The notes under the pieces were generated by a model, which had not been told where the DNA came from, searched no databases, and worked only from the letters and a program-made list of their open reading frames with translations. DNA of 64,000 nt from Candidatus Aldehydirespirator sp. (GTDB lineage Bacteria; Actinomycetota; Acidimicrobiia; Acidimicrobiales; Aldehydirespiratoraceae): NCBI GenBank assembly GCA_965204875.1, contig OZ242020.1:2027729-2091728 (forward strand), given 5' to 3'. Within the stretch, counting starts at the first letter, position 1. Every line of letters starts with the position of its first letter. Position numbers and translations under genes: made by a program. Shown in pieces: positions 1-41,843 of this stretch.

Positions 1-157
1 CGCGTGCTCGGCGCCCTCGCCGCTGTCGAGGTACTCCCAGGCGAAGCGGGGGATCCGCCGCCGCGCCCCGCGGCGCAGGTCCTCAACGCTCTGATATCGC
101 AGCGGGGGCTTGCGCCGAGGGGGCGTGCCGTCAGCGTGCCGGCGGTTCCAGTTCACG
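1..157 (-). CDS. FMN-dependent alpha-hydroxy-acid dehydrogenase (LldD/glycolate-oxidase type), N-terminal part only; gene continues beyond the left edge
   Basis: Reverse translation of 1-157 is open: [52 protein letters not shown]. The RRIP.F..EY.D.G..E pattern is typical of the N-termini of this family. It is absent from the ORF track because no stop lies in the window. GTG at 157 is only a candidate start. Confidence 0.4.
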
Positions 158-925
158 TGCCAGCAGCGCCAGCGTCTGCGACCAGGACAGCTCTGCCGCG
201 GCCTCGTTGTAGGTGGGCGCCCCCGGCCAGGTGTAGCCGTGGTCGGCGCCAGGGTGGATGTCGATGACGACCCGGTCGCCGAGCGCGGCCGCCGCGTCGA
301 TGAAGGGCTGCATGCCGGCGACGCTCATGATCGTGTCGGCCTCCCCGAATCCGGCATAGAGCGACCCGGCGAGCTGTCCGACGCTGAGGTGGGGCGAGTC
401 GGAGGCATCGTCCACCAGGAACGACGGATGCCACATGGCGCCTGCGGTGAACTGGTCGGGCAGCCGCATCATCGTGCGGAACACGGCCCTCGCCCCCAGG
501 CAGAAGCCGATGCAGCCGACTTTGCTGAGCGACCCGGCCGGACGCTCGCCCTCGAGGATCGCCAAGGTCGCGTCGAGGTCAGCCTGAATGCCGCCGTCGC
601 TGAGCGAGGAGAGCATCTCGAAGATCCTGCCGCGGGCGGAGGGGTCGGCGGCGATGTCGGTGGGGCTGAAGCCGATCATGCGGCCGTGCCGGTGATAGAG
701 GTCCGGCACGGCCACGTCGTATCCGCACCCGGCGAGGCGCCGGGCGAAGGCGTGGGTCGCGGCACGCATGCCGGGGCCGTCATGGAACAGCACCACAGCA
801 GGGTGCGGCCCACCCGTCTCGGGGCGCTTGCGCAGCACCGCCATAGGCTCGCCATCACTGGCGGTATCAACGACCGTCTCGTGGATCGCATGATGGAATG
901 CTCGGTTGTCCTGATGTCTGCTCAC
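131..925 (-). CDS. dienelactone hydrolase family protein
   Basis: 264 aa. Has [11 protein letters not shown], the nucleophile elbow IGFCLGA and a C-terminal HPGADHGY histidine motif, an alpha/beta-hydrolase DLH pattern. Confidence 0.8.
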
Positions 926-1089
926 AGCGCCCAGTATCGCAGCCCACGTGACTGTCGCGAGTTAGCTACCTGGCGTTGACGGTGACCGACTTGCTCGCTG
1001 GTGTCACCGGCGGCGGTGTGCCCGAGGAGCGGTAGTGAGGACGAGCGCACCATGCCTCCACGGGCGATGCTGGCGCGCACCCCCGCCGC

Positions 1090-4000
1090 GTGCTTCAATG
1101 GGCGGCCATGCTCTCACTCCAGCCTGCCGCCACGCTAGGCGAAGCCATCGGACGGTTGGACCGTCTCGCCCCCGAAGCGACTGACGGTTACGACCTTGAA
1201 CTGCTGATCGCTGATATAGCACCTCTGATCTCGGCCTGGCAGCTGTCCGGCTGCTGGTTCTGGGATGAATGGCCTGACCGTGAGAAGGTCTTGCCAGACG
1301 CGCCGCCTGTGGATGTAGGTATCGACTTGGTAGCGCAACGCATCGACGGCGGCTGGGTCGCGATTCAAGCGAAAAGCCGCCAGTTGGACGAGCACGGTGT
1401 TGGCGCGCCCGTAGCCAGCGGCGAGATCAACAAGTTCTTGGCCGCCGCAGGCGACAAGGACATCTGGGCTGAACGATGGATGGTCACTAACGGCGCGGTC
1501 GAACTTGCAGGCTGGGCTGAGGGCAAGGACACGATGAGCGGCGGCCCGCCGATGCGAGTGCTGAACCTGGCAGCCGTGTTACGCGAGGAACTAGCGTCGC
1601 TTGCCAGCAGCGACGCTTGCCCTCCCTCCTCGAAGCCGGCCGGAGACGATGCCGGTAGGCGGCAGTCCCGCGACGAAATGCAGGCCGAAGCTGTCGAAAC
1701 GGCGGTGAGTATCCTCACCGAACACGCTCAGATCGATGAGCCTGGCATCCCCCGAGGCGAAGCCCGAGGCCGGATCGTCCTACCCTGCGGCACCGGCAAG
1801 ACACGGGTCGCTCTACGGATCGTCGAACGTTTGACCTACCCAAGCGAGTTGTCTGTGGTGTTGTGCCCCTCGATAGCGCTCGTAGCGCAGCTACGCCGAG
1901 AGTTCTTGGCCCACGCCGAGCGGCCTTTGCGGACTATGGCCGTGTGCTCCGACCGGACGGTCGCAACCGACCTCGATCAGGAGGAGCGCATCGCACGCAA
2001 CGCCGACGATTTTACTGCCGACCGAGGCGCAGAAACGACGGCTTCGTTGACCGGCACGGTCACCACCGACCCCGACAAGATCGCAGACTGGATCCGCCAG
2101 CGACGCTCCGACGGCAACAACAACCACGTCAGCATCATCTTCGGCACCTATCAGTCCGCTCGACGGCTCTCCGAAGGCATCTCCCAGGCTGAAGCCGCGG
2201 ACGCTTTCAAGGTACTGGTCTGCGACGAAGCGCATCGCACCGCCGGGGTGCGTCGCAAACAACGCAACACATCTGAGACGCGGAAGGTCAGAGACTTCAC
2301 GCTCTGCCACGACAGAGCGGCCTTCCCCGCCTCCTATAGAGTATACCAGACTGCTACGCCTCGCATCTACTCTGACGCAGCTCGCGCTAAACAGCACCGC
2401 GCGGGCTGGCTGGTCCGTGACATGGACGATCAGCAGACCTTCGGGGTAGACCTCTACCGTCGCAGCTATCTCGATGCCGTAACCTACGACTGGCTCTCCG
2501 ACTATCGGATCATCGGCATGGGCGTGGGCGGCGACGAAGCCCTAGCCATCGCCAACCGGCTGGTCCGCGAAGCCGACCAGAACGCCGCAAAAGAAGCCGC
2601 CGACGCCGAAGCCAACGGTGACGCTAAGGCTGTTAAAGCCGCCCGTAGTCGAGCTAGAGGGCTGCCGACCACAGGCGACTATCTGAAGGGCATGGCGTTC
2701 GCCTTGGCTGTGGGTGGCGCAGCCCGCGCCCCTGACGGACATAGCGTTCCGATCACGTCGTGTATCGGGTTCCTGAACACGGTACTCCGTAGCCGGACCA
2801 TGCGGACTGTGCTGGACTCCGAAGCGGTGCGGGACTGGGTAGCGAAACAGGCTGACGGGCCGCGCAACGGCTACCAGCTGGAGCATTTGGACGCTTCGTC
2901 GCCATCGTCGCTGCGAGACGAGGCGAAGACACGGCTCAAGCACAACCCGACCGGCAGCAGTCACAGTGTCCTCAACGTAGGTATCTTCAGCGAAGGCACC
3001 GACGCGCCGTCATTGTCGGCGGTCGCGTTCCTCGAAGCCCGCCGGTCGCCCATCGACGTGGTCCAAGCCGTGGGGCGTGCTATGAGAAAAGCGCCTGGCA
3101 AGCAGATGGGTTACATCATCGTTCCTGTCGTGTTCCCGCAGGGTGTGGACGCTGAAGAGCATCTAACCCATTCCGACATGCACGAAGGCTGGCAGGAGCT
3201 AGGGGAAATCTTGCAGGCTTTGCGAGCGCACGACAAGCGCATCGAAGACGCATTACCGGAGATGCTGCGTATTCAAGCACCGTCCGCTGATCAGTTGCGG
3301 TTGGAGTTGGCAGAGACCTTTGTGGTGACCATCGCCGTCCCTGATAGTCTCCAATGTCAACACCTCGAAGCGGAAGTCACAGGCGGCATCGAAGAAGCGC
3401 AGAAGATCGCCTCTGATCTAATCTCCGGCAAAACAACAGTCAGTGAACATCCGCAGGTGCGTCTGCTACCAGACAAATACGAAGACCCCGACAAAGAGCC
3501 CAACCGCCATATCGCTGTCGCGATGAACGCCGACGGAGACCGCACCGACAGGGTGGATGCCACCCGCCGGTACGCGCCCAAACAGGGCGAGACCAAAGGA
3601 CGTTTCAACGCCGCAGCCACCCGCCGCAACGGTCGTAAGATGGTAAACAGGCAGAGCGGCAAAGATACTCTCAGCGACCAAGAACGTAAGCGCAGGCGCG
3701 AAGAGAACGCCCAGAAACGCGCCGAACGGGAACGGCAACGGCAGGCCGAGGACAACGAGCATCATCAGAAGCAGATCAACCTGCTCACCAGCGAACTAGG
3801 AGACCAGATCGCAGTGAACGTGCTCGAACGCTCCGGCCTGACCGCGGATCGCACCACCCGAGACCTGAACCTGCTTCGAGCATCTGTCGAGGAGGCCGCC
3901 CGTTATCTGCGCTCCGAAACCGCTCTAGCCGCCGCACTGAACGAGCACCACGGCATCACCGCTTTAGAAGCTAACAGCACAGGCAACCCCCGTGCGGATG

Positions 4001-5712
4001 GCGCGACCGTCACAGCGCTGTTGTGGATGAACGCGGCGATGCTCCAGCAGCGCATCCACAAAGGCCGATGGCTGTCCGGCAGCATCGACGCTCTCACCGA
4101 CATCAAATCGCACACCGCACCGCACACGCGGTTTCAAAGGTCGTGGCAGGCCATCACCCGTCAGGACTTCCTGCCGGTTATCCAACCCGCTATCGAAGCG
4201 CTAGAAGCCGCTATCGACACGCAGCGCCTCGCAGGTTTGAGCCGAGCGTTGCGGCATCTCGCCGCCGAAGCCGAACAGATCGCAGAGGTCTACGCTGATA
4301 TGGGCGTAGACCATGCCGGGGTCTTGTTCAACAAGGTGATGGGAGATCAAGCCTCAGATGGCGCGTTCTTCACCCGTCCCGTAGCCGCCGACCTTTGCGC
4401 ACGGCTGGCGTTTGATGCTATTGACCCTGACAACCAGCTTGACTGGTCTGACCCTGCGGTGTGGCGTGAGCATAAGACCGTGGACTTGGCTTGCGGTTCT
4501 GGGACACTGCTAACCGCGGCAATGTCGGAAATGAAGCGGCGTGCCACAGCAAAGGGCGCGAAACGTAAACGGCTGGCCGAGCTTCAGAAGGTCGCAGTCG
4601 AAGACGTGTTGAAAGGGTTGGACATCAACCCGATCTCGTTGCAGCTTGCTGCTACCCAGTTGATGAGCGGCAACACGGATGTCGCTTATGAGAGTATGGG
4701 TTTGTATCAGATGCCCTACGGTGAACAGCCTGACAGTATCGTGGCGGCCGGTTCGGTGGAACTGTTGGCACGAGCGGAAATCGTGACCGCCGACGTTGAA
4801 TATGTGACCGCCCCGGTTCAGCAGCGTATGAACACAGAGAGGGATCGGTCTAAGCAGGTTCTTACAGGGTTGGAGGATCATGAGGCTGCGCTCAAACATC
4901 CGGACGTGAACAAAGCAGCCAAGGCTGTGTCTGATGCGCGTATTGTCATAATGAATCCGCCTTTTACCAAATGGAAAGAGATAGGTAAGAAGTTTACGAG
5001 GAATGTCCAAACGAGATTACGAGAGCGAATGGAGACCCTCGCAGACCATTTGACGGTAGCTGATCCGCTCCTTAGCGAGTTCTTGGGCAAGAATTCGCTA
5101 GGGCCGCGATTCGTGGCCTTAGCAACTTTGTGCCTAGATTCTCAAATTGGAGTTTGCGCTACTATTATTCCTACGTCCGCTTTGACCAACACGAGTGGTC
5201 TTGCTGAACGTTTGGAGTTAGCCAAACGTTTTCAAATTCATACTATCTTGACTTCGCACGACCCGCACAACTTCGCATTGGTTCAAAACAGCAATCTAGG
5301 TGAAAGCATCGTCATCTTGAAAAGGCATCAGGGGGCGCGTCCTCTTACTCGTATAGTCTCGTTGGATCGGCTCCCCAGAGACGAAATCGAAGTGACCCAA
5401 CTGTTCGGCTCCTTCGACACGGCTGTAGGCGCATTCGCGGACGGCTGGGCCGGGGGGGGGGGGGGGGGGGTGGGGAGAAGTGTCGCTATGGCCCGCAGAC
5501 CGCATCGCCGCGGGCGACTGGAGCGTAGCGACCTGGCGTTCTCCAGAGCTGGCCGAAAACGCACAACGGTATGGCTCACATTGCGATCTTCGTGCGATGG
5601 CTTCTGCTGGCCTGTCGGCACACTCGACAGGCCGGCAGATACGCGGGCGCGGATACGCCAGCGTATCTGCCGGAACGCAAGGAGCTTTCGGCTTCGTCAA
5701 AGGTGCGGGTAA
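1090..5712 (+). CDS. Type ISP-like restriction-modification enzyme, N-terminal 3/4 (Mrr-like nuclease + SF2 helicase + gamma-class N6-adenine methyltransferase); frame lost at the G19 tract, so the last ~80 aa of this ORF are out-of-frame read-through
   Basis: Nuclease motif VDVGIDLVAQRIDGGWVAIQAKSR (about 1318-1380). Helicase motif I CGTGKT (about 1786-1803) and motif II DEAH (2224-2235). QAVGRAMR is motif VI-like. MTase motif I DLACGSGTLL and motif IV NPPF (4954-4965). First ATG is at 1108; GTG at 1090. Confidence 0.8.
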   Translation: MLQWAAMLSLQPAATLGEAIGRLDRLAPEATDGYDLELLIADIAPLISAWQLSGCWFWDEWPDREKVLPDAPPVDVGIDLVAQRIDGGWVAIQAKSRQLDEHGVGAPVASGEINKFLAAAGDKDIWAERWMVTNGAVELAGWAEGKDTMSGGPPMRVLNLAAVLREELASLASSDACPPSSKPAGDDAGRRQSRDEMQAEAVETAVSILTEHAQIDEPGIPRGEARGRIVLPCGTGKTRVALRIVERLTYPSELSVVLCPSIALVAQLRREFLAHAERPLRTMAVCSDRTVATDLDQEERIARNADDFTADRGAETTASLTGTVTTDPDKIADWIRQRRSDGNNNHVSIIFGTYQSARRLSEGISQAEAADAFKVLVCDEAHRTAGVRRKQRNTSETRKVRDFTLCHDRAAFPASYRVYQTATPRIYSDAARAKQHRAGWLVRDMDDQQTFGVDLYRRSYLDAVTYDWLSDYRIIGMGVGGDEALAIANRLVREADQNAAKEAADAEANGDAKAVKAARSRARGLPTTGDYLKGMAFALAVGGAARAPDGHSVPITSCIGFLNTVLRSRTMRTVLDSEAVRDWVAKQADGPRNGYQLEHLDASSPSSLRDEAKTRLKHNPTGSSHSVLNVGIFSEGTDAPSLSAVAFLEARRSPIDVVQAVGRAMRKAPGKQMGYIIVPVVFPQGVDAEEHLTHSDMHEGWQELGEILQALRAHDKRIEDALPEMLRIQAPSADQLRLELAETFVVTIAVPDSLQCQHLEAEVTGGIEEAQKIASDLISGKTTVSEHPQVRLLPDKYEDPDKEPNRHIAVAMNADGDRTDRVDATRRYAPKQGETKGRFNAAATRRNGRKMVNRQSGKDTLSDQERKRRREENAQKRAERERQRQAEDNEHHQKQINLLTSELGDQIAVNVLERSGLTADRTTRDLNLLRASVEEAARYLRSETALAAALNEHHGITALEANSTGNPRADGATVTALLWMNAAMLQQRIHKGRWLSGSIDALTDIKSHTAPHTRFQRSWQAITRQDFLPVIQPAIEALEAAIDTQRLAGLSRALRHLAAEAEQIAEVYADMGVDHAGVLFNKVMGDQASDGAFFTRPVAADLCARLAFDAIDPDNQLDWSDPAVWREHKTVDLACGSGTLLTAAMSEMKRRATAKGAKRKRLAELQKVAVEDVLKGLDINPISLQLAATQLMSGNTDVAYESMGLYQMPYGEQPDSIVAAGSVELLARAEIVTADVEYVTAPVQQRMNTERDRSKQVLTGLEDHEAALKHPDVNKAAKAVSDARIVIMNPPFTKWKEIGKKFTRNVQTRLRERMETLADHLTVADPLLSEFLGKNSLGPRFVALATLCLDSQIGVCATIIPTSALTNTSGLAERLELAKRFQIHTILTSHDPHNFALVQNSNLGESIVILKRHQGARPLTRIVSLDRLPRDEIEVTQLFGSFDTAVGAFADGWAGGGGGGVGRSVAMARRPHRRGRLERSDLAFSRAGRKRTTVWLTLRSSCDGFCWPVGTLDRPADTRARIRQRICRNARSFRLRQRCG
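5452..5470. repeat. homopolymeric G19 tract inside the Type ISP-like gene
   Basis: Counted directly: c at 5451, 19 consecutive g (5452-5470), t at 5471. Confidence 0.95.
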
Positions 5713-6262
5713 TATTGTTGAAAGGGTTGCTGCTCAGCCGTCCGCATGGTGGCAAATTCCGTCGTCGGACGCGAACGCATTGAATGCGAAGGCAGGACAT
5801 CTGCTGATTGCGGGCTCAGTAGCGCCAGTACAAAGCAGGGTCTTGGCGATCGCGTCAGATGAATGTTATGTGGGAAACCCGTGGATTCCTGTCACCGGAG
5901 CGTCACCTGCGCAGAGCAAAGCTGTGGCAATTTTTCTCAACTCTACGATCGGAATGCTACTCACTTTAAATCAAGGTGCGGGGCGAAGGGAGTTACTGAC
6001 CTATACTGTCGATGCTGTCAACTCTCTTCCTATCCCCGACATTAGCAACCCGAACATCGTCAAACCGCTTGCCCAATGCTGGCAGAAGACCCGCGAGATA
6101 ACCGTGCCCCAGTTCCGTGATGGCTATTGTGAGGTTCGCCGACTGTGGGATCGGGCGGTGTGCGATACGTTAGGCTGGGATTATAATGAGATCGCGAAGC
6201 TGGGCAAACTGTTACATCGCGAACCGCGAATAGCGGGCGTAGCTTATGGACAGTGGAAGTGA
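5480..6262 (+). CDS. C-terminal (target-recognition-like) part of the Type ISP-like enzyme, in the +1 frame relative to 1090..5712
   Basis: The frame is open from the G tract (tgg gga gaa gtg ...) to the stop at 6262, and the translation looks like a globular domain. Removing one G fuses it to the upstream ORF. Low G+C. Confidence 0.6.
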   Translation: MSLWPADRIAAGDWSVATWRSPELAENAQRYGSHCDLRAMASAGLSAHSTGRQIRGRGYASVSAGTQGAFGFVKGAGNIVERVAAQPSAWWQIPSSDANALNAKAGHLLIAGSVAPVQSRVLAIASDECYVGNPWIPVTGASPAQSKAVAIFLNSTIGMLLTLNQGAGRRELLTYTVDAVNSLPIPDISNPNIVKPLAQCWQKTREITVPQFRDGYCEVRRLWDRAVCDTLGWDYNEIAKLGKLLHREPRIAGVAYGQWK

Positions 6263-6539
6263 AGGGAAAGACAGTTTTATGACAGATCACGCAGTAAGCA
6301 TTGGCGATCCCACCACATGGTGGCGACGATTTTGAGGCATCACCGCGTCAAATGATCCCTCGGGCGGACCCTGCACGGCCTGCCCCAGCGAGGTTCCCAA
6401 TCACGGGGAAGCCTTGCCTTGTGAACTCCGGCTCGTAGCCAGGCGTGACCGCGCGGCGAGTCGTGGCTCGTTGCTCAAGAGTCGAGCGCATGCTTGGTTG
6501 CGGCGGCCATCCTCTTGCCGGTGAGCAGCGACATTGGGC

Positions 6540-7796
6540 TCAAGGCCGGTATCCCTCGAGGGTGTAGGGGTTGAGGAACTGGCGGCCCCAGAGCCGGTCC
6601 CGCTCCGCGCGGCTTGCTTGGGCGGTGTCGCAGACCTCGTCCCAGTGAGCGTGGATCGTCGCGATCTGCTGATCGGCGATCTCCCTGGCGGGTTGGGCAT
6701 CAAGGTGGTAGTGGCCGGCGTGGCTGACACAGCGCGCCACCTGGCTCAGGCGGTCCCCGTCGGGCCCGAAGGCCATCGCCTGGGCGGCCTCGCCGCCGGT
6801 GCGTAGCTGCGGGCAGATGTCGTATGCGGGCGTGAGTGTCAGGTTGGCGCCGTCCCAGAAGGCGGAATGGTTGCGGGCGTGGTCGTCGGTGTTGCTGACG
6901 AGGATGTTGAAGACGATGCGCGAGAACAGCTCCCGCAGCGTCGAGTCGGCGTCGGTGAAACGCGCCCGGATCTGGTGGGCCAGGTCGGTATAGGTCGCGT
7001 AGCGGCCTGCCATGCCGTATGCGTCGTGTAGTTGCAGGATGGTCATTGCTGAGACCATCATGCACCGAGCGCCGCTTGGGGTTCGATCGAATCGCCCCAC
7101 CATCAGGACTTCTCGGCCGAGTGCTTGGGCGAGTTCGACACCGGCGACGTCGATCCCGGCGCGGCGTGCCAGTTCCATGGCTATGTACTCGGCCTTGACC
7201 ACGGGGTATGGGTCCGTGGACGATGAGAACTTGGCGATCATGCCTCGCTGCCCGTCAGCGATCAGAGCCTTGGGCCGCGCCCCGCCGACGGAGGTTCCAT
7301 GGAGCAGGGCGCGGTTTAGCGCGGGGGTCAGCGGCTCGCCCCGCTCCACCCGGTCGGCGGCCTCCGCCAACTCGGTCAGTGACGCGGAGTCGCCCGAGCG
7401 CGCCTCGTAGCTCCGAGCCGAAGCCTGGAAGTCGAGCGCTCCGATGCGATTTGAGCCTGACTCGAGCAGGTACGTCAGGACGGGCAGGTCGGTGTGTGCG
7501 TTGCCGCGGCGATGCTCGATCGCCCGGCGTCCCCAGGCATCCGGCGCGGCGTCGGACACGCAGCCGGCGATCTCGCCAGACAAGGGATGCAGTTCGCCGC
7601 GCCGCAGCGGCAACTCGGGCAGGTACAGCGCTGTCGGCTCGGAGCGCTCGAGGTAGCTGCGGGCGTATGTGAAGGTGACCGTGGCGCCGCGTTCGTCCAG
7701 CCTTCCGGCGACGACGGGCTCGGTTGCCTCTGGCGGCCAGAACCACACGTATGCGTGGTCAGGGTGCCGGTCGGGATCAGAAGTCGTCATCGACAC
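6540..7796 (-). CDS. hipA: type II toxin-antitoxin system HipA family kinase toxin
   Basis: 418 aa. Has GGARPKALI, NTDDHARNHSAFW and an N-terminal coupling region (YLPELPL..G). Confidence 0.85.
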   Translation of the reverse strand: MSMTTSDPDRHPDHAYVWFWPPEATEPVVAGRLDERGATVTFTYARSYLERSEPTALYLPELPLRRGELHPLSGEIAGCVSDAAPDAWGRRAIEHRRGNAHTDLPVLTYLLESGSNRIGALDFQASARSYEARSGDSASLTELAEAADRVERGEPLTPALNRALLHGTSVGGARPKALIADGQRGMIAKFSSSTDPYPVVKAEYIAMELARRAGIDVAGVELAQALGREVLMVGRFDRTPSGARCMMVSAMTILQLHDAYGMAGRYATYTDLAHQIRARFTDADSTLRELFSRIVFNILVSNTDDHARNHSAFWDGANLTLTPAYDICPQLRTGGEAAQAMAFGPDGDRLSQVARCVSHAGHYHLDAQPAREIADQQIATIHAHWDEVCDTAQASRAERDRLWGRQFLNPYTLEGYRP

Positions 7797-8103
7797 GGCG
7801 TGCCCGCACCGTCGCCGGCAGGACAGCCAGGCGGGAGTCGACCACTTCGGCCTCTGTGGCGCGCCTTGCCGGATCGGGATGGAAGAGTGGCACCCCGACC
7901 AATGCCGCCGCCTCGAACGCGGTGCCGAGCGCGACGCTGGGGTCGCCCCTTTCGACCTTGCGCAGTGTCACCACGGACACTCCGACCCTTTCCGCGAGAT
8001 CCGCAAGCGTCCACCGGCGCTCCCGGCGTGCCAGGGCCACCTTGCCTCCGAGCAGCCTGATGGCCTCAACCGTCTCCGGACACAAGGGCCTAGTCCTGCT
8101 CAT
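7777..8103 (-). CDS. hipB: XRE-family helix-turn-helix antitoxin/regulator (HipB-like)
   Basis: 108 aa. HTH WTLADLAERVGVSVVTLRKVERG. Lies immediately upstream of hipA and overlaps it by 20 nt. Confidence 0.7.
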   Translation of the reverse strand: MSRTRPLCPETVEAIRLLGGKVALARRERRWTLADLAERVGVSVVTLRKVERGDPSVALGTAFEAAALVGVPLFHPDPARRATEAEVVDSRLAVLPATVRARRVDDDF

Positions 8104-8438
8104 GGAGAGTATTCTTTCGGTAGAGCTATTTGACCGTCAGTTTACTTTACTGCCCATGTTGGCAGGCTTCCCACCTTTGCCTGCCGAGCGGAGCAAAAAG
8201 TTGTGCTCCCTCCCTATCTGGTCTTCAAAATTGAGATGAGTTCCTCCAATTGCTCTGATATGATGTCTAGCTTCACGTATATATTGTATACGCCCTCATG
8301 TATGTTGTACAGAGCCGCGTACTTGTATGGGATTCTTTTGGTTCCCTTGCCTTGATCTATCATATTGTACATGATTGCCCTCTCATGGTTTGCTCGTGTG
8401 GCTGTTTGCGTCCCTGGGCGGGAGGGTGGTGTGGCTGG
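8104..8438. promoter_or_regulatory. AT-rich non-coding region upstream of hipBA with repeated TTGTAYA motifs and small inverted repeats
   Basis: About 43% G+C by hand count (8261-8320). Motifs tatattgtatac, tatgttgtacag, gtacttgtatgg and catattgtacat lie within 8276-8375. Inverted repeats: GTATA-n5-TATAC, ATCAT-n7-ATGAT, and ggcaggc-n11-gcctgcc near 8158-8190. Confidence 0.4.
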
Positions 8439-10418
8439 TCAGCTCGGGGGGAGTTGGAGCACCCAGCCGGGGAGGATGAGGTCAGCCTTGGTGAGGCTTC
8501 TGCCGTCGCTCTGGGGCTTGCCTCGGTTGAGTGCGTAGATCTCGTTCCAGCGTTCGCCTGATCGGAGGTGGCGGGCCGCGATGCGCCAGAGGCTGTCGCC
8601 GGGCTTGACCATGACGGTGGCCGGTGCCGGCTCGGCTCCGGCCCGCACGGCCGTGATCCGGTTGCCGCCCCCTGGCGGGTAGTCGGCCGCGGTGATCCGG
8701 CCGTCGAGGGTCTTGGCGATGTAGTCCGCGGTTGCCTGCTGGTAGCTCACGCCGAGCAGGGTGAACCCGATGTCGGCGAGCGGGTAGCAGTCGCCCCCGT
8801 TGGCCAGGAAGTCGACCGTGGCCAGCACCACCGGATCGCCCGGCACCACCGATCCGTCGCGCACGATCACGGTGCCGTCGTTGAGCACCACGTCGCGGAT
8901 CCGCGAACCCGGGTCGCCCGTGAGCGAGCAGTCACCCTCGCGGTCGGTCTCCCGGGCGGGGGCGGACGGGTCGTAGGCGAAACTGAACCCGGAGACCTGC
9001 GGGAAATGGCCCCCGGCGCCGGGTATGCGGTCCACGGCCTGCTCCAGCAGCACATGGAAGGTCTCGCGGGAGATCTCACCCACCACCACGAAGTTGCGGA
9101 ACGGGGCCATGTCCCAGGTGTCGCCGGTGGTGACGGCGCCGGCCGCGATCACGGCGTCGTTGCGGATGCCCCCGCCGTTCAGCACGGCCACGTCGGGCAC
9201 CGGCGTGCCGAAGGACGAGGCCAGGTCGGCGGCCGCAGCGCGCAGGGAGTCGGCCTGGAGGTTGCCCTGGTTGGTGGAGCCGGTGCGCACGCTGGTCCGG
9301 CGCCCGTCGAGGTCGACGTCGCTGTGGCCGATGACCTGGGCGTCCACCTCGGCCACGGCCGCGGCGAGGGGCTCGACCACGCTCGACTGCACCGCCGGGT
9401 CGGGCGTCACGTCGAGGCTCACGCCAACCGAGCGGCCGGTGTGGCTCACGATGTTGCCGTCGCCGTCGAAGACGACGGTCAGCGCACCGATGCAGCGATA
9501 GCCGCCGGGCGCGGTGATCACCGGCACGTTCGTGCCCGTCGAGTCCGCCACCAGCAGCGGGTAGGCGCCCGCGGGCTCCTCGCCGGGCATGCAGGTGTCG
9601 CCCTCGTTGCGCAGCAGTTCGTCCCCGCCGCCGGCGATCACCACGTCCACGCCGGACAGGCTGCCCACCAGCTCGACCTCCTCGGACACCCCCTGCAGGT
9701 GGCTGACCAGGATGATCTTGTCGACCCCTTGCCCGGCGAGCCGCCTCACCTCGCCCTGCACCGCCGCCAGCACCTCTGAGATCACCACGTTGCGCGGCGT
9801 GGAGATGTTCCGCAGCTGGGGAGTGACCGCTCCGATCACCCCGATCTGCTGATCGCCCACCGCGACGGTGGTGCCGGCCGCCAGCACGCCCGAGTCCACC
9901 AGCGCCTGCAGCACCGGCTCGCCTGAGAAGTCGGCGTTGGCCGACAGGAACGTGACCGGCGGCGTGAACCCCTTGATGAAGCGGGCCGTCACCTCCGGGC
10001 CGAGGTCGAAGTCGTGGTTGCCCAGTGCCATGGCGTCATAGAGGCCGCTGAGGGCGACCGAGTCATAGAGGGCGCCGTCGCGGGCCAGCGACACACCGAG
10101 CTCCTGTGAGGCCAGGAAGTTGTCGCCAGCGGTGAGCGTGATCGCTCCGGAGCCGGCGGCGGTCGCCGCGGCCTGCATGAGCTTCAGCTGCGCGGCGAAG
10201 CGGGCCACACCCGGATATCCGGCGTCGGCATCGGGCAGCAGCTTCGATTCGCCGTCGTTGTTGTGGAAGATCGTGAGGGTGAACGTGTCGGCGCTGATGG
10301 GCTGCGGCGTGGGCTCCTGCGCGCCGGCCGGCGCAGGCAGCAGCGACGCGACCATCGCGGCCACCAGTGCGAGGGTGGCGAGCGCGGCTACGGGCCTCTT
10401 GGAGCGTGCTCGTGGCAT
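8439..10418 (-). CDS. secreted bifunctional metallophosphatase/5'-nucleotidase with C-terminal LysM domain
   Basis: 659 aa. Signal peptide ALATLALVAAMVASLLPAPAGA. Metallophosphoesterase motifs FHNNDGES and GNHDFD. C-terminal LysM VKPGDSLWRIAARHL...WNEIYALN. Confidence 0.8.
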   Translation of the reverse strand: MPRARSKRPVAALATLALVAAMVASLLPAPAGAQEPTPQPISADTFTLTIFHNNDGESKLLPDADAGYPGVARFAAQLKLMQAAATAAGSGAITLTAGDNFLASQELGVSLARDGALYDSVALSGLYDAMALGNHDFDLGPEVTARFIKGFTPPVTFLSANADFSGEPVLQALVDSGVLAAGTTVAVGDQQIGVIGAVTPQLRNISTPRNVVISEVLAAVQGEVRRLAGQGVDKIILVSHLQGVSEEVELVGSLSGVDVVIAGGGDELLRNEGDTCMPGEEPAGAYPLLVADSTGTNVPVITAPGGYRCIGALTVVFDGDGNIVSHTGRSVGVSLDVTPDPAVQSSVVEPLAAAVAEVDAQVIGHSDVDLDGRRTSVRTGSTNQGNLQADSLRAAAADLASSFGTPVPDVAVLNGGGIRNDAVIAAGAVTTGDTWDMAPFRNFVVVGEISRETFHVLLEQAVDRIPGAGGHFPQVSGFSFAYDPSAPARETDREGDCSLTGDPGSRIRDVVLNDGTVIVRDGSVVPGDPVVLATVDFLANGGDCYPLADIGFTLLGVSYQQATADYIAKTLDGRITAADYPPGGGNRITAVRAGAEPAPATVMVKPGDSLWRIAARHLRSGERWNEIYALNRGKPQSDGRSLTKADLILPGWVLQLPPS

Positions 10419-10686
10419 TGGGCTGTCTCCTTCGTGAGTGTGGTGCGGGGGCGTCGGACGGTGGCTCGCGGTGAGTCAGTGACGGTGCCCGCGGGCCGCC
10501 CCGACCTCGCTGGGCACCTCTCTAGTGCTGTGCTTGCGGACGTTATCAGTGCGCTGTGACACGTCGAGCCGCAGGCCGGCCGAGGATCGCCCCCTGGCTT
10601 GACCCGTTCGCTGGCTGCGCCTACAACGCTGTAGCAGCCGAGGAGCTAGGCCGGCTGGTGTCGCAGCCCGATGGTAGGTTCTAGGT

Positions 10687-11765: not shown

Positions 11766-12118
11766 CAGGACGCTGCCCGCCGCGAGGCGGCGATCTCCAA
11801 AGCGCTGTCGCAGTTCGGGGCACGGGTGCGGGAGATCGAGCCGCCCCAGCCCGCGGGACGCACACGCCGATGCGGACACAGCGGCTGCCGCAGGCGCGTG
11901 GCGGCTGGGAAGATGTGCCCTGTCCATGAACGCCCGCCGAAGGGGAAGCGGGTATAGCGCAGGGCTACCTGCCGGTGGGTGATGCACGCCCCGGGGATCG
12001 CCTGCCTGTGGTGCTTTGGGGGCTACCGTCATTGCAGGCGATCTCACCGGCCTTCGCCCCTGCGTCGCCCGCGGTGTGAGAACCCGCCGAGGCGCTGGGA
12101 AGAGCCGCCGGCAGGAGC

Positions 12119-38591: not shown

Positions 38592-41500
38592 GTGGCTACC
38601 GATCGAAAGGTTTCATCCGTGCTATATCAAGAATTATCGGAACTCATTCAAATCGGTGACTTAAGCCAACTGTTTGTCGTAAGGATGGGCTGGGACAATC
38701 CGGTTCAGGCTGAGCCGGTCGAAGTGTCCGATAGTGCGCTGCGTCCTGTGGCTGTCGCTGACAAGAAGGGTGTTACCGCTTGGCGGGTGGACTGCCCAGG
38801 CTTGCCGCAGCGTTCCGAGCAGCATCGGGTGGTGCGGGAGCTCAAGCGCCGTAGCCGTGATCAGCTGGTCGTGTTCGTAGCCCCGGACACGCACCTGTGG
38901 CTGTGGCCCGAGCAGCGTTCGAGCGGCGTCGGGTACCGGTTGGTCGATTACGAGTACCCGGCGCAGGCACCGACCGAGGCGCTGTTGCAGCGCCTCAAGC
39001 AGGCATCGTTCAAGATCGAAGAAGAGAACCAGCTGACATCTAGCTCGGTATTGGACAGAGTCCGCCGCTCGTTCAACGCCGACAAGGTAACCAAGTCCTT
39101 CTACCGTGAGTTCCAGAAGCACCACAAGGACTTCTCGAGGATGGTGGAGGGAATCCCCGTAGACAAGAGCCGCCGTTGGTATGTGTCGGTGCTGCTCAAC
39201 CGGCTCATGTTCATGTACTTCATCCAGCAGAAGGGCTTCCTGAACGGCGATCAGAACTACCTTCGCAAGTGTCTGGGCAGGGTTCGAGAGCGCTACGGTG
39301 CCGACCAATTCTATGCGTTCTATCGTGAGTTCTTGCTTCCGCTATGTCATGAAGGTCTGGGACGCCCCTCGGGTCAGCGCAATATAGACCCTGTGATCGA
39401 GCAGATCATCGGCAACGTGCCGTACGTGAACGGCGGAATCTTCGAGCAGCATACTCTGGAGATCAAGCACGATATACAGATCAGAGACGACGCGTTTGAG
39501 ACTCTGTTCGACTTCTTCGATAGCTGGCGCTGGCACCTGGATGAGAACCGGACCGGTGCTGCGAATGAAATCAACCCTGACATCCTCGGATTCATCTTCG
39601 AGAAGTACATCAACTTCACAGATCGTGGCCAGAGAGAAACGGGCGCGTACTACACGAAGCCCGACGTGACCGGCTATATGGCGACCTTCACCATACTGCC
39701 CGCCCTCGCGGATCGGTTCGTCTCGGCTGGGCTGGACGATCCGTGCTTGCTGCTCTCAGGCTCAGACGATGACTACATTCACGACAGCGTGCTCCACGGC
39801 GTAGAGCCGATTTCTGCGGGGGGGGGGAAGGCTGATCAGCCTCCGCCATCGGACGAGCTGGCGCTGCCAGGAGAGCGCTGGTGTGACATCACCCATCGCC
39901 GGGAGCGGTGCGCGCGACTGCGGAGCCTGCTGTCGGACGGCTCACGCGAGTGGACGATCGACGACTGCATTACCGAGAACCTTGACATCCGGGAGCTGCT
40001 GGCCGACTACCTGGTGCAACTGTCCAGTGCCGAGGAGTGCGATCAAGCCTTCAAGGTTCTGAGATCGCTGACCGTATGTGATCCCACGGTCGGATCAGGA
40101 GCGTTCCTGTTCGCTGCTCTCGAAGTGCTGGAGCCACTGTACGAAGTGGTGTTGTCGCGCGCTGCGGAGTTGCATGACAGGCAAGGCGATACTGAACTTG
40201 CGGACTGTCTGAGGGAGAGTCGCAGGCATCCAAATCCGAGTTACTGGATGCTGAAGACCCTGTGCCTCAACAACCTCTATGGCATCGATCTCATGGACGA
40301 GGCGCCTGAGATTTCCAAGTTGCGCCTGTTCCTGAAGCTCGCCGCACAGTTGGACGATGTGAACCAGTTGGAACCCCTGCCTGATCTTGACTTCAATATC
40401 AAGTCAGGCAACCTCTTGGTAGGCATTGCCGACAGGCAGGACGCTGAGCGAAGGCTTGGTGCGGGCCAACTTGATCTTGGTGGAGAAATCAAGCAGATCG
40501 GCGAGTTAGCAGAGCGAGTTGGAATCATATATGACGACTTTGTGCGAGCTCAATCTAAGGACATCGGGAACAGCGACCACGCGGTAGCCAAGCAGAGGTT
40601 GAACGCTGAACTCATGACGGCGCGCCATTCGGCAGATGATCTGCTCTACAGGAAGCGGCACGAGCGTGGTGACTTCGAGTATTGGCGTGATTCACACCGA
40701 CCATTTCACTGGTTTGTGGAGTTTCCAAGCGTGTGGCGACACGACGGCTTTGATATAGTAATCGGCAACCCACCGTATATTCAGACGAATAAGGTAAGAG
40801 AATATAGGCGGATAGGCTATAAGACTCAGAATTGTCCTGACCTCTATGCAGTTTGCGTTGAGCGAGCGTCGAACTTGGTCAACGAAAGGGGTCGAGCATC
40901 CATGATCGTAATGCACAATCTGTGCTTCAGTCACCAGTATACTCGTCTTCGTAATCACCTTTCAAGTCTCTTTTCTTCCTTGCACGTATCATCCTACGAT
41001 AGATTACCCAGTGGGCTATTCAGTGACTCCGCTGCTGTTCGCAGTTCCATATTCTTGGCTACCAAGTATCAACACATGGCAAATCTCGCTGTTGATATTG
41101 CACAGGACGAACGCAGATGTGCAGTTGTCGTGCCATATGTGTCCTCAGTTCATCGCTGGCATACGAATTCTCGTTCGTGGCTGTTTGATTCTGTGACGTA
41201 TGTTGGTCCTCAACGATCGCTCGTTACGCTCAACGGCAACGACGTCTGGCCCTTTGTTGGCTCTGAAGCCATATCGGGTGCTCTTGGTAATGTGGCGTTA
41301 GGAAAACCAATATCTGATGTAACGTCTAGGAACGGTCGCTACTCGCTGGCCTACAAGAAGACGGGACTATATATGTTAGGTATATCCGTGGAACCTCCTC
41401 CCACACTGGGTGGCACGACGGCAAACTACGGATACTTGCGTTTTTCGGAATCGATTTGTCGCGACTTGGCCCTGCTGATGCTGGCTGGCCGCTGGGGGTA

Positions 41501-41843
41501 TGTTTGGTGGCTAATCTACTCGGATTGGTTTCATGTGACGAGTGGCGTAGTCAAGAGCTTTCCGGGCGATATTGCGCGAATCGTCGTCGAAGCGGAACAT
41601 GAAGCGTCTGATTTGAGGCTTGGTGCCCTACAGTCGCTAGCTCACGGACTTGCAGAAGAGATGACAGACCATCTGGCATGGACATGGAAACTTGGTCTTA
41701 AGGTCGGTCGATACAAGATGCATGAGCTTAGACACATTACTGACGAGGCTGATCTGCTGCTGGCTCAGGCTTGGGGAATCGAGGATGCTTATGAGGCGGC
41801 GGGGAACTTTCGTGATCGCATGATCTTCGGAACCAAAGAGTAG
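38592..41843 (+). CDS. large gamma-class N6-adenine DNA methyltransferase (Eco57I/MmeI/PglX-like), no nuclease motif seen
   Basis: 1083 aa. Has DKVTKSFYREFQ, LLNRLMFMYFIQQKGFL, motif I VCDPTVGSGAFL (about 40074-40109) and motif IV NPPY (40767-40778). The C-terminal third is AT-rich and TRD-like. Confidence 0.85.
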   Translation: MATDRKVSSVLYQELSELIQIGDLSQLFVVRMGWDNPVQAEPVEVSDSALRPVAVADKKGVTAWRVDCPGLPQRSEQHRVVRELKRRSRDQLVVFVAPDTHLWLWPEQRSSGVGYRLVDYEYPAQAPTEALLQRLKQASFKIEEENQLTSSSVLDRVRRSFNADKVTKSFYREFQKHHKDFSRMVEGIPVDKSRRWYVSVLLNRLMFMYFIQQKGFLNGDQNYLRKCLGRVRERYGADQFYAFYREFLLPLCHEGLGRPSGQRNIDPVIEQIIGNVPYVNGGIFEQHTLEIKHDIQIRDDAFETLFDFFDSWRWHLDENRTGAANEINPDILGFIFEKYINFTDRGQRETGAYYTKPDVTGYMATFTILPALADRFVSAGLDDPCLLLSGSDDDYIHDSVLHGVEPISAGGGKADQPPPSDELALPGERWCDITHRRERCARLRSLLSDGSREWTIDDCITENLDIRELLADYLVQLSSAEECDQAFKVLRSLTVCDPTVGSGAFLFAALEVLEPLYEVVLSRAAELHDRQGDTELADCLRESRRHPNPSYWMLKTLCLNNLYGIDLMDEAPEISKLRLFLKLAAQLDDVNQLEPLPDLDFNIKSGNLLVGIADRQDAERRLGAGQLDLGGEIKQIGELAERVGIIYDDFVRAQSKDIGNSDHAVAKQRLNAELMTARHSADDLLYRKRHERGDFEYWRDSHRPFHWFVEFPSVWRHDGFDIVIGNPPYIQTNKVREYRRIGYKTQNCPDLYAVCVERASNLVNERGRASMIVMHNLCFSHQYTRLRNHLSSLFSSLHVSSYDRLPSGLFSDSAAVRSSIFLATKYQHMANLAVDIAQDERRCAVVVPYVSSVHRWHTNSRSWLFDSVTYVGPQRSLVTLNGNDVWPFVGSEAISGALGNVALGKPISDVTSRNGRYSLAYKKTGLYMLGISVEPPPTLGGTTANYGYLRFSESICRDLALLMLAGRWGYVWWLIYSDWFHVTSGVVKSFPGDIARIVVEAEHEASDLRLGALQSLAHGLAEEMTDHLAWTWKLGLKVGRYKMHELRHITDEADLLLAQAWGIEDAYEAAGNFRDRMIFGTKE
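39818..39827. repeat. homopolymeric G10 tract, in frame, inside the methyltransferase gene
   Basis: Counted directly: ...ttctgc gggggggggg aaggct.... It encodes AGGGK. Confidence 0.9.

What the first reader, a model, noticed from the sequence alone, without database searches (positions are those of the whole stretch)
5452..5470. G19 tract puts the Type ISP-like R-M gene out of frame (phase-OFF state or homopolymer sequencing error)
The upstream ORF starts at 1090 (position = 1 mod 3). The downstream ORF (5480..6262) is in the next frame (2 mod 3) and is open back through the tract (tgg gga gaa gtg). G18 or G21 would give one continuous 1,723-aa ORF (1090..6262) reading ...ADGWAGGGGGGWGEVSLWPADRIAAGDW.... 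With G19 the protein ends at 5712 after about 80 aa of Arg-rich out-of-frame sequence and lacks the C-terminal TRD-like domain. That fits a contingency locus switching a combined restriction + modification enzyme on and off, which would change both defence and the methylome.
Basis: partly seen in the sequence, partly recalled or inferred. Interest (0 to 1): 0.65.

Follow-up and report, generated by a model that had tools for sequence, protein, structure and literature searches.

The report
Poly-G switch in a restriction-modification gene
A run of 19 G's splits a 1,723-codon restriction-and-methylation gene of an uncultured Acidimicrobiales bacterium, and public data sets of the same strain carry 13, 15, 16 or 19 G's, so it behaves as a real on/off switch of a kind well known in pathogens but, as far as I could find, not reported for such uncultured bacteria.

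Summary
G19 lies at 5452-5470. ORF 1090-5712 is followed by a second frame that is open from 5429 to 6262. G15, G18 or G21 would fuse them into a protein of about 1,723 aa.

The protein has a Type ISP architecture: Mrr-like nuclease, SF2 helicase (LlaBIII/LlaGI, E 2e-47), a gamma N6-adenine methyltransferase (NPPF motif) and a C-terminal domain. That domain folds like the target-recognition domains of BpuSI, CamA and HsdS.

The tract is an 8-codon insertion (AGGGGGGW) absent from all relatives. It sits in a low-confidence interdomain loop.

Four public runs of this strain differ from the window by at most 3 substitutions in 12 kb, yet carry G19, G16, G15 (in frame, full depth) or a G13/G15/G16 mixture. 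The window's only other long homopolymer is a G10 in a Type IIG R-M gene. It reads G11, out of frame, in the run where the G19 tract reads G15.

Homologues in many phyla carry G/C tracts of 9-25 nt, about 9-fold enriched inside the gene, and 23 of 80 fetched genes change frame, 18 of them at a listed tract.

Verdict: a real SSR phase-variable R-M gene, here in an OFF state. It is a new member of a known kind. ON/OFF activity and methylome effects are untested.

The parts
1090..5451 (+). Pre-tract part of the single-polypeptide R-M gene (codons 1-1454; likely start ATG at 1108). Nuclease motifs GIDLVAQ 1318-1338 and AIQAK 1360-1374. Helicase motifs GTGKT 1786-1803, DEAH 2221-2235, QTATPR 2347-2364 and QAVGRAMR 3064-3087. 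Methyltransferase motif I DLACGSG 4483-4503 and motif IV NPPF 4954-4965.
   Evidence: Pfam Mrr_cat_2 (aa 51-133), ResIII (196-425), Helicase_C (592-667). PADLOC REase_MTase_IIG PDLC03597, E 2e-88 (aa 51-722). PDB LlaBIII 4xqk, E 2e-47 (aa 71-730).
5437..5481 (+). Junction ...ADGW-AGGGGGG(W)-GEV. It holds an 8-codon insertion (GCC, the G tract, TGG) that is absent from all aligned homologues, which read DGW-GEVS.
   Evidence: alignment of relatives; the Gly run falls in a pLDDT<50 loop (model residues 448-458) between a helix of the methyltransferase domain and the first strand of the C-terminal domain.
5452..5470 (+). G19 homopolymer, the switch. All in-frame Gly codons would be GGG, which makes up only 16% of Gly codons in a sample of genes from this window.
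   Evidence: Length variants G13/15/16/19 in public runs.
5471..5712 (+). Out-of-frame tail read in the G19 state. It is 80 aa, Arg-rich, with its stop at 5710-5712.
5471..6262 (+). Target-recognition-like C-terminal domain (263 aa plus stop), in the frame reached with G15/G18/G21. It has no stop codons.
   Evidence: AF2 pLDDT 88.7, pTM 0.89. Foldseek: BpuSI 3s1s E 3e-4 with TMq 0.60, CamA C-domain, PacII and BsaXI S subunits, HsdS weakly.
38592..41843 (+). Second single-polypeptide R-M gene of the window (Type IIG, Eco57I family). It carries an in-frame G10 at 39818-39827. Run X3 has G11, which truncates the product at 414 of 1083 aa.

Best explanation
The G19 tract is a hypermutable simple-sequence repeat that works as a reversible frame switch (contingency locus) in a single-polypeptide Type ISP-like restriction-modification gene.

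How it works:
- Slipped-strand mispairing during replication changes the number of G's (inferred from established knowledge; length variants are shown).
- With G15, G18 or G21 the ribosome reads through a 5-7-residue Gly loop into the C-terminal target-recognition domain. This gives the full enzyme of about 190 kDa: nuclease, helicase, methyltransferase and TRD (frames shown; activity inferred).
- With G19, as in this window, or G13/G16, translation leaves the frame at the domain boundary and ends at 5712. With G14, G17 or G20 it ends after 17 more codons.
- Either OFF product keeps the nuclease, motor and methyltransferase cores but lacks the TRD. In Type ISP/IIG enzymes site recognition needs the MTase-TRD unit, so restriction and methylation should be lost together (inferred).

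The population therefore holds ON and OFF cells for this enzyme and, independently, for a second R-M gene in the window switched by a G10/G11 tract. This would give a mix of defence specificities and methylomes.
For: (1) The tract is real and far beyond chance.

(2) It is a lineage-specific 8-codon insertion at a domain boundary, in a loop modelled with pLDDT<50. Its Gly codons are all GGG, the minor codon here at 16%.

(3) The tract is the only lesion. Both frames are otherwise open over 5.2 kb, and the nuclease, helicase and methyltransferase motifs are intact.

(4) Logan contigs of four public runs:
- X1 has G19.
- X2 has G16, linked to two substitutions (4811-12 CC>TT).
- X3 has G15, in frame, at full contig depth (103x), linked to the same two substitutions plus one more.
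- X4 has G13 (32x), G15 (48x) and G16 (29x).
Over 12 kb these runs differ from the window by only 0-3 substitutions, so the tract is the fastest-changing site.

(5) Control tract. The G10 in the Type IIG gene is a clean G10 in X1, X2 and X4 and a clean G11 at full depth in X3. In X3 the ISP-like gene is in frame and the Type IIG gene out of frame; X1 and X2 show the reverse.

(6) Family context:
- 32 of 39 homopolymers of 9 nt or more, all G or C and up to C25, lie inside the homologous genes, which make up 33% of the DNA examined (binomial p = 4.5e-10).
- 23 of 80 fetched genes change frame, 18 of them at a listed G/C tract; three more have a tract of 9-19 nt 54-110 nt upstream.
- Tracts recur at a few positions (around aa 180, 340, 780, 1110, 1405 and 1455).
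- A Pseudohongiella homologue has an in-frame G19 seven codons before GWGE.

(7) In the closest clade, 43 of the 120 best protein hits end early, mostly at a poly-Pro (C-tract) site near aa 1412 or at a (GA)n/(AC)n/Gn site near aa 1503.

(8) PolyG switching of a single-gene R-M enzyme is experimentally established for C. jejuni Cj0031 (PMC4889913). G/C tract mutability is documented in PMC3401435.
Against: No raw reads were available, only assembler contigs and unitigs. Each individual length call for a tract of 13-19 G's may be off, and part of the heterogeneity in X4 may be library or sequencing slippage.

No expression, methylome or restriction data exist for this gene, and no RNA run holds it.

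Three of the four runs and most tract-bearing homologues are out of frame (21 OFF against 10 ON overall; 2 of 21 in frame upstream of aa 1300). This is also what relaxed selection or decay would give.

The window protein deviates from family-conserved residues 3-6 times more than any of 42 relatives, in every domain.
Confidence: 0.72

Rival explanations
1. Assembly or sequencing artefact. The real tract is a uniform in-frame length such as G18, and the gene is simply intact. G19 would be a homopolymer miscall of the assembly.
For: The relatives' records are mostly chromosome-scale MAGs, which suggests long-read assemblies, and consensus errors in homopolymers of 15 nt or more are common (my knowledge). 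Unitigs around the tract are noisy, and all-G artefact words pile up there at depths above 1e5.
Against: An independent Logan contig of run X1 reproduces G19. X2 and X3 carry G16 and G15 on contigs that also carry linked substitutions, so they are different haplotypes and not noise. The short G10 tract, which should be read reliably, also differs cleanly between runs, G10 against G11. SPAdes/MEGAHIT-named (NODE_/k141_) MAGs of relatives also break frame at G10-G12 tracts: L009, L042 and L062.
Confidence: 0.07
2. A pseudogene in decay. The homopolymer is a mutational scar that inactivated the gene. Its length now drifts without any adaptive ON state, and the same holds for many family members.
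For: OFF lengths occur in 3 of 4 runs. Only 2 of 21 tracts upstream of aa 1300 in relatives are in frame, fewer than the one third expected. The window protein is the most deviant of 43 at conserved positions in all domains.
Against: There is no other stop or frameshift in 5.2 kb, and the catalytic motifs are intact. Divergence is uniform, not concentrated downstream of the tract. An in-frame G15 allele is dominant in run X3. Tracts in the family recur at a few positions; the two sites that could be checked on the model (near aa 1405 and 1455) are loops, and in-frame examples read as Gly or Pro runs. In the three-frame cassette of close relatives the three frame states occur at similar frequency.
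Confidence: 0.13
3. Leaky recoding rather than a genetic switch. RNA polymerase slippage or ribosomal frameshifting on the 19-G run restores the frame in a fraction of transcripts. The G19 genotype would then still make some full-length enzyme, and the tract would act as an attenuator.
For: Long homopolymers are known to provoke transcriptional slippage (established mainly for A/T runs; my knowledge). Nothing in the data excludes it.
Against: There is no RNA evidence. It does not explain why DNA tract lengths differ between haplotypes. It is compatible with DNA-level switching rather than an alternative to it.
Confidence: 0.05
4. A split enzyme. The C-terminal domain is translated on its own from GTG 5480 and joins the truncated protein in trans, much as HsdS joins HsdM.
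For: The break lies exactly at a domain boundary. A GTG lies just after a G-rich, SD-like stretch. Gene callers list such downstream ORFs as separate genes in relatives L081 and L082.
Against: The GGAG lies only 2 nt from the GTG. The upstream frame runs 230 nt past this start, so there is no coupling by termination. The 71 untruncated proteins among the 120 best hits are single chains, with GWGEVS continuous across the junction in those aligned.
Confidence: 0.03

Closest known systems
Cj0031 (cj0031c/cj0032) of Campylobacter jejuni: a polyG phase-variable Type IIG restriction-modification enzyme (PMC4889913)
   Same: One gene encodes both nuclease and methyltransferase. An intragenic polyG tract decides whether the full-length protein is made. 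ON/OFF changes methylation of a specific motif and phage restriction; this is shown for Cj0031 and inferred here.
   Different: - Cj0031 has no helicase motor. Here the enzyme has an Mrr nuclease plus an SF2 translocase, as in Type ISP.
- C. jejuni tracts have a modal length of 9 (PMC3401435). Here the tract is 13-19 nt and lies at the MTase/TRD boundary.
- The host is an uncultured, 67% G+C Acidimicrobiales bacterium, not a low-G+C pathogen.
Type ISP restriction-modification enzymes LlaGI and LlaBIII (PDB 5ffj, 4xqk)
   Same: Same domain order in one polypeptide: Mrr-like PD-(D/E)xK nuclease, SF2 helicase-like ATPase, gamma N6-adenine methyltransferase, C-terminal TRD. The nuclease and helicase half is clearly homologous (E 2e-47).
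   Different: - The methyltransferase/TRD half is not detectably similar in sequence to LlaGI/LlaBIII.
- By fold it is closest to CamA, BREX PglX and BpuSI. LlaBIII/LlaGI are not among the 50 best Foldseek matches.
- In two literature searches I found no report of SSR phase variation of a Type ISP enzyme (one search found only papers that mention both terms separately).
Phasevarions: SSR phase-variable Type III mod and Type I hsdM/hsdS genes (surveys PMC5909438 and PMC7383803; review PMC12707154)
   Same: Intragenic simple-sequence repeats, slipped-strand mispairing, and stochastic ON/OFF switching of an N6-adenine methyltransferase. Several independently switching R-M loci occur per genome.
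   Different: - Those are multi-subunit systems, mostly in host-adapted pathogens, and a regulatory role has been shown for them.
- Here it is a single-chain enzyme in an uncultured bacterium, and no regulatory role has been shown.
- The family uses many alternative tract positions, and in one clade a three-frame cassette.
CamA, BREX PglX (BrxX) and BpuSI: gamma-class adenine methyltransferases with a C-terminal recognition domain
   Same: Best structural matches of residues 1001-1723 are CamA 7lni (E 1.6e-15, TMt 0.64), BrxX 9ewz, PglX 8q56 and BpuSI 3s1s. The post-tract domain alone also matches BpuSI at TMq 0.60.
   Different: Sequence identity is only 9-14%. CamA is an orphan methyltransferase and PglX works in a multi-protein BREX system. 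Neither is fused to an Mrr nuclease and a helicase.

Membership tests
Type ISP restriction-modification enzymes (LlaGI/LlaBIII type) | N-terminal Mrr-like PD-(D/E)xK nuclease in the same polypeptide | tested here: met
   Pfam Mrr_cat_2 E 9e-9 at aa 51-133. The LlaBIII alignment starts at aa 71. The GID...QxK motif is present at aa 77-95.
Type ISP restriction-modification enzymes (LlaGI/LlaBIII type) | SF2 helicase-like ATPase (motifs I, II DEAH, III, VI) homologous to the LlaGI motor | tested here: met
   ResIII E 8e-19 and Helicase_C. LlaBIII E 2e-47 and LlaGI E 7e-45 over aa 71/225-730. Motifs GTGKT, DEAH, QTATPR and QAVGRAMR are present.
Type ISP restriction-modification enzymes (LlaGI/LlaBIII type) | Gamma-class N6-adenine methyltransferase domain downstream of the motor | tested here: met
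   Motif I DLACGSG and motif IV NPPF. The AF2 model matches adenine methyltransferases CamA, PglX and M.BseCI at E 1e-15 to 1e-12. No sequence-level match to the LlaGI/LlaBIII methyltransferase was found.
Type ISP restriction-modification enzymes (LlaGI/LlaBIII type) | C-terminal target recognition domain | tested here: met
   The post-tract 263-aa domain models at pLDDT 88.7. Its Foldseek matches include BpuSI, the CamA C-domain, the PacII and BsaXI S subunits and, weakly, HsdS. This is fold-level evidence only (E 3e-4, TMq 0.5-0.6). In this window the domain is out of frame.
Type ISP restriction-modification enzymes (LlaGI/LlaBIII type) | ATP-driven translocation from an asymmetric site, cleavage on collision of two enzymes, one-strand methylation | not testable with these tools
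   This is biochemistry. It needs the purified in-frame enzyme.
SSR-driven phase-variable (contingency) R-M locus | Intragenic simple-sequence repeat long enough to be hypermutable, whose length sets the reading frame | tested here: met
   G19 at 5452-5470. Frames were computed for G13 to G23.
SSR-driven phase-variable (contingency) R-M locus | Tract-length polymorphism within or between populations of the same strain, including in-frame and out-of-frame lengths | tested here: met
   G19 (X1), G16 (X2), G15 (X3) and G13/15/16 (X4) sit on otherwise nearly identical DNA, linked to SNP haplotypes. The second R-M tract reads G10 or G11. Caveat: these are contigs, not raw reads.
SSR-driven phase-variable (contingency) R-M locus | No other inactivating lesion; the ON allele encodes a complete protein | tested here: met
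   A single 1722-1724-aa ORF results with G15/18/21. The motifs are intact. However, divergence at conserved residues is raised.
SSR-driven phase-variable (contingency) R-M locus | Reversible high-frequency switching in a clonal lineage, with matching change in methylation or restriction | not testable with these tools
   This needs culture or heterologous expression, or per-read tract length against 6mA kinetics in long-read data.
Phasevarion (phase-variable regulon) | ON/OFF of the methyltransferase changes expression of other genes | not tested
   There are no transcriptomes of ON and OFF variants. No RNA run holds the locus.

The most novel reading that the evidence does not exclude
The G19 tract may be one instance of a family-wide contingency system spread across phyla, in bacteria whose MAG names suggest sponge microbiomes.

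The Type ISP-like family has repeatedly gained long G/C, (GA)n and (AC)n tracts at a few recurrent positions; the two that could be checked on the model are loops. Relatives were found in MAGs labelled Acidimicrobiia, Dehalococcoidia, Caldilineaceae, Rhodothermales, Gemmatimonadota, Nitrospirales and Proteobacteria, often with several paralogues per genome.

In one clade the switch has become a three-frame cassette. An SSR is followed by three diverged copies of one segment, 74 nt apart and therefore each in a different frame. Two frames end in defined short tails and the third gives the full enzyme. That would be a three-state protein switch rather than a simple ON/OFF.
Probability: 0.45. Interest if true: 0.8.

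Novelty: new member of a known kind. Interest (0 to 1): 0.62.

Why it matters
Phase-variable R-M systems have been studied mainly in host-adapted pathogens. This locus shows the same device in an uncultured, high-G+C Acidimicrobiales bacterium and in a Type ISP-like enzyme, an enzyme class for which I found no report of SSR switching.

Two R-M genes in one 64-kb window toggle independently between public samples of the same strain. So the defence repertoire and methylome of this bacterium would not be fixed properties of its genome sequence. This matters for three practical reasons:
- Annotation pipelines will call such genes pseudogenes.
- It affects how MAG methylomes are read and binned.
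- It bears on how phage pressure is met in dense microbial communities.

The family-wide pattern offers a ready test set of natural ON and OFF alleles.

Tried and rejected
- Looking up the window's own products P0001 and P0003 to get the record and the paralogue's DNA returned nothing on record. The cluster look-up gave no names.
- An exact-flank pattern scan of JGI metagenomes for other tract lengths found nothing.
- No RNA run holds the locus, so expression and transcriptional slippage could not be examined.
- TRF does not detect the 74-nt triplication in relatives because the copies are too diverged. It was found through peptide motifs instead.
- The genome scan ranks full-length matches to the C-terminal 424 aa first. 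Tracts near the C-terminus are therefore biased towards in-frame in L001-L080, so I did not use them for ON/OFF ratios.
- The codon-position test for selection on the alternative frames of the cassette is suggestive for copy 2 (3, 4 and 10 variable sites at codon positions 1, 2 and 3). It is not for copy 1 (6, 3, 6). Six loci are too few to conclude.
- Pfam, NCBIfam and PADLOC give no family for the methyltransferase/TRD half beyond weak hits. Only fold comparison was informative.
- A G-quadruplex or regulatory-DNA reading of the tract was considered and not pursued. Nothing supports it beyond the sequence being G-rich.
Full report
**Observation.** The window holds an uninterrupted run of 19 G at 5452-5470. 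The only other homopolymer of 8 nt or more in the 64 kb is a G10 at 39818. Given the base composition, about 1e-4 G or C runs of 19 nt or more are expected by chance.

ORF 1090-5712 (+) codes for 1540 aa. The public gene call for the same product is 1534 aa, consistent with the ATG at 1108. The next frame is open from 5429 to the stop at 6260-6262. Removing one G gives a single 1,723-codon ORF that reads ...ADGWAGGGGGGWGEVSLWPADRIAAGDW....

Frame outcomes:
- G15/18/21 give 1722-1724 aa.
- G13/16/19/22 give about 1540 aa, with an 80-aa Arg-rich tail.
- G14/17/20 give about 1478 aa.

**What the gene is.**
- The N-terminal half carries an Mrr-type nuclease (Pfam Mrr_cat_2, aa 51-133) and an SF2 helicase (ResIII, Helicase_C). 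It matches the PADLOC Type IIG/ISP model PDLC03597 (E 2e-88, aa 51-722). It also matches the solved Type ISP enzymes LlaBIII (4xqk, E 2e-47) and LlaGI (5ffj, E 7e-45) over aa 71-730.
- All catalytic motifs are present: GID...QxK, GTGKT, DEAH, QTATPR, QAVGRAMR, DLACGSG and NPPF.
- The C-terminal half has no useful sequence-family match.
- An AlphaFold2 model of residues 1001-1723 (43-sequence alignment, pLDDT 75, pTM 0.70) is most similar to adenine methyltransferases that carry a C-terminal recognition domain. These are CamA (7lni, E 1.6e-15, TMt 0.64), BREX PglX/BrxX, BpuSI and M.BseCI.
- The post-tract ORF alone (263 aa) models at pLDDT 88.7 and pTM 0.89. It matches BpuSI (E 3e-4, TMq 0.60), the CamA C-domain, the S subunits of PacII and BsaXI and, weakly, HsdS.

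So the architecture is that of a Type ISP enzyme: nuclease, motor, methyltransferase, TRD. The methyltransferase/TRD module is of the CamA/PglX/BpuSI kind rather than the LlaGI kind. 'TRD-like' is supported at the fold level.

The neighbours are unrelated: a dienelactone hydrolase, a HipA toxin, a 5'-nucleotidase/LysM protein and a GyrA/ParC-like protein. The enzyme therefore stands alone, as Type ISP enzymes do.

The GyrA/ParC-like protein is 74% identical to one on a 3,445,870-bp contig. That length equals that of OZ220491.1, a MAG labelled Acidimicrobiales. The organism is thus an uncultured Acidimicrobiales bacterium.

**The tract itself.** All aligned relatives read ...DGW-GEVS.... The window has eight extra codons (AGGGGGGW) between W and G, so the tract is a lineage-specific insertion. 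In the model the Gly run lies in a loop with pLDDT below 50 (model residues 448-458). That loop sits between the last helix of the methyltransferase domain and the first strand of the C-terminal domain. All its Gly codons would be GGG, which makes up only 16% of Gly codons in a sample of genes from this window. A flexible interdomain loop encoded entirely by the rarer, slippage-prone codon is what a contingency tract looks like.

**Is the length variable?** Four public runs hold this locus. Only Logan contigs were available, not reads. Over window 1-12000 they differ from the window by 0 (X1, X4), 2 (X2) or 3 (X3) substitutions. Their tracts differ:
- X1 has G19.
- X2, from the same sample, has G16 together with 4811-12 CC>TT (A1241V).
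- X3, under another organism label, has G15 on a contig at full depth (103x), with the same two substitutions plus a synonymous one at 3834.
- X4 has unitigs with G13 (32x), G15 (48x) and G16 (29x), against 765x in the flanks.

G15 is in frame. Because the lengths are linked to substitutions, they are haplotypes and not just noise. Within the TT haplotype the tract differs by one base between samples.

As a control I laid the same runs on the G10 at 39818. It is a clean G10 in X1, X2 and X4 and a clean G11 at full depth in X3. That tract lies in a Type IIG R-M gene (38592-41843; PADLOC PDLC03628, E 1e-174), and G11 truncates its product at 414 of 1083 aa. So in X1 and X2 the ISP-like gene is out of frame and the Type IIG gene in frame, while X3 shows the reverse. 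Both long homopolymers of this window sit in single-chain R-M genes, and both toggle between samples of a nearly identical strain.

**Family context.** 1,672 homologues were found, and 343 genome stretches in species-representative genomes encode relatives. The 80 loci fetched come from MAGs labelled Acidimicrobiia, Dehalococcoidia, Caldilineaceae, Rhodothermales, Gemmatimonadota, Nitrospirales, Alpha- and Gammaproteobacteria and others. Several genomes carry two or three copies. Names such as Candidatus Poriferisodalis and the bin labels point to sponge microbiomes; that is my reading of the names and was not verified here.

- In these loci plus the window, 32 of 39 homopolymers of 9 nt or more lie inside the homologous gene. 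All are G or C, and they reach C25. The gene makes up 33% of the DNA examined (binomial p = 4.5e-10).
- 23 of 80 genes change frame, 18 of them at a listed tract; three more have a tract of 9-19 nt 54-110 nt upstream.
- Tracts recur at a few positions: around aa 180, 340, 550-585, 780, 1030-1110 and 1400-1455.
- In-frame tracts read as Gly or Pro runs.
- A Pseudohongiella homologue (L017) has an in-frame G19 seven codons before GWGE.
- MAGs with SPAdes/MEGAHIT-style contig names (L009, L042, L062) also break frame at G10-G12 tracts. The breaks are therefore not only long-read miscalls.
- The loci were ranked by an intact C-terminal match. Only tracts upstream of aa 1300 are unbiased, and of those just 2 of 21 are in frame. 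That is fewer than the one third expected. It may reflect long-read errors, selection for OFF, or decay. I cannot tell which.

**Closest clade.** Among the 120 best protein hits, 43 end early. Most do so at a poly-Pro (C-tract) site near aa 1412 or at a site near aa 1503. Another 14 lack the N-terminus, 10 of them starting near aa 190-230, just after the tract site around aa 180.

The DNA of six loci shows what lies at the aa-1503 site. First comes an SSR: (GA)4-26, (AC)9 or G8. Then come three diverged copies of the segment that encodes xHATGQxxRxxY. The copies are spaced 74 nt apart in most cases, and always 2 mod 3, so each copy lies in a different frame.
- Frame A ends about 10 codons after copy 1 (IHKTxPTLSxxYRR...*).
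- Frame B ends after copy 2 (...VMVHATLQxLYxDYRK...*).
- Frame C reads through to the full enzyme.

All three frames are kept in all six loci, whatever their current state. The three states occur at similar frequency among the proteins: roughly 9, 6 and 11. The window gene lacks this cassette. Even so, it shows that frame switching in the first ~50 residues of the TRD, just past the MTase/TRD junction, is a maintained feature of the clade.

**Mechanism, and what is shown or inferred.**
- Shown: the tract, the frames, the domain boundary, the length variants linked to haplotypes, the second toggling tract, and the family enrichment.
- Inferred from established knowledge: length changes arise by slipped-strand mispairing. 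The TRD-less products cannot recognise the target, so they lose methylation and restriction together. The population therefore hedges between defence and methylome states.
- Open: how a cell survives OFF-to-ON switching with an unmethylated chromosome. Type ISP and Type III enzymes need two head-to-head unmodified sites (my knowledge), which may soften this.

**Rivals.**
- A pure assembly artefact is unlikely, given the haplotype-linked lengths and the G10/G11 control.
- Decay is the most serious rival. The window protein departs from family-conserved residues 3-6 times more often than any of 42 relatives, in every domain, and most observed states are OFF. Against decay: the tract is the only lesion in 5.2 kb, the excess divergence is not concentrated downstream of the tract, and an in-frame allele dominates one sample.
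- Transcriptional slippage and a split enzyme cannot be excluded, but nothing supports them.

**Comparison and novelty.** The closest known case is the polyG-switched Type IIG enzyme Cj0031 of C. jejuni (PMC4889913). Next come the SSR-switched Type III and Type I methyltransferases (PMC5909438, PMC7383803, PMC12707154). I found no paper on SSR switching of a Type ISP enzyme, or on contingency loci in sponge-associated bacteria. The library is incomplete, so this is not proof of absence.

The G19 locus is a new member of a known kind. The family-wide pattern and the three-frame cassette would be a new variant if confirmed.

Noticed in passing
window 39818-39827 (gene 38592-41843, +): The only other long homopolymer in the window, a G10, lies in frame (..SAGGGK..) in a Type IIG REase-MTase gene (Eco57I family; PADLOC PDLC03628, E 1e-174). 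Public run X3 has a clean G11 there, which truncates the product at 414 of 1083 aa. Runs X1, X2 and X4 have G10.
   Followed up: yes
L081 7493-7760; L082 7466-7720; L083 7436-7690; L085 2233-2480; L087 2231-2530; L096 2244-2500: Close relatives carry a three-frame cassette about 48 codons after GWGEVS. An SSR ((GA)4-26, (AC)9 or G8) is followed by three diverged copies of one segment spaced 74 nt apart (2 mod 3). Frames A and B end in conserved short tails and frame C gives the full enzyme. All three frames are kept in all six loci.
   Followed up: partly
L001-L080 (for example L020 4209 C25, L022 3365 G21, L033 5537 C19, L017 7463 G19, L018 4308 G17): Homologous genes in MAGs of many phyla hold G/C tracts of 9-25 nt at a few recurrent positions. 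23 of 80 genes change frame, 18 of them at a listed tract. Upstream of aa 1300 only 2 of 21 tracts are in frame, fewer than the one third expected.
   Followed up: partly
L012 3240 (G12); L018 3273 (C22); L032 8419 (C15) and 8497 (G15): Long G/C tracts also lie about 100 nt upstream of the gene start in two loci, and 150-220 nt downstream of the stop in another. These may be promoter-type or neighbouring switches.
   Followed up: no
window 3834 and 4811-4812: The only substitutions that separate the public haplotypes over window 1-12000 all lie inside the ISP-like gene: a synonymous S915 change and a CC>TT change giving A1241V.
   Followed up: partly
window 1090-6262 (protein level): The window protein is the most deviant of 43 family members at family-conserved residues in every domain (for example helicase 7.6% against a median of 1.3%; C-terminal domain 19.7% against 3.5%). 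The paralogue on the same contig (P0003, 1771 aa, intact) ranks second in the C-terminal domain.
   Followed up: partly
window 41849-45223 (+): An HKD (PLD) nuclease plus SNF2 helicase gene (PADLOC C3a139 'HKD+Snf2', E 1e-40; also DrmD-like) directly follows the Type IIG gene. This may be a two-gene defence module.
   Followed up: no
window 6540-7796 (-) and 10687-11765 (+): A HipA-family toxin kinase gene lies just downstream of the R-M gene. A small ORF plus a DUF6036 nucleotidyltransferase pair lies nearby. The R-M gene therefore sits among toxin-antitoxin-like genes next to the GyrA/ParC-like gene.
   Followed up: no
L003 5489-6740: One homologue (an Acidimicrobiales MAG, OZ220474) has an insertion of about 1.25 kb inside the gene, between the parts matching aa 1203 and 1193. 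It was not characterised.
   Followed up: no
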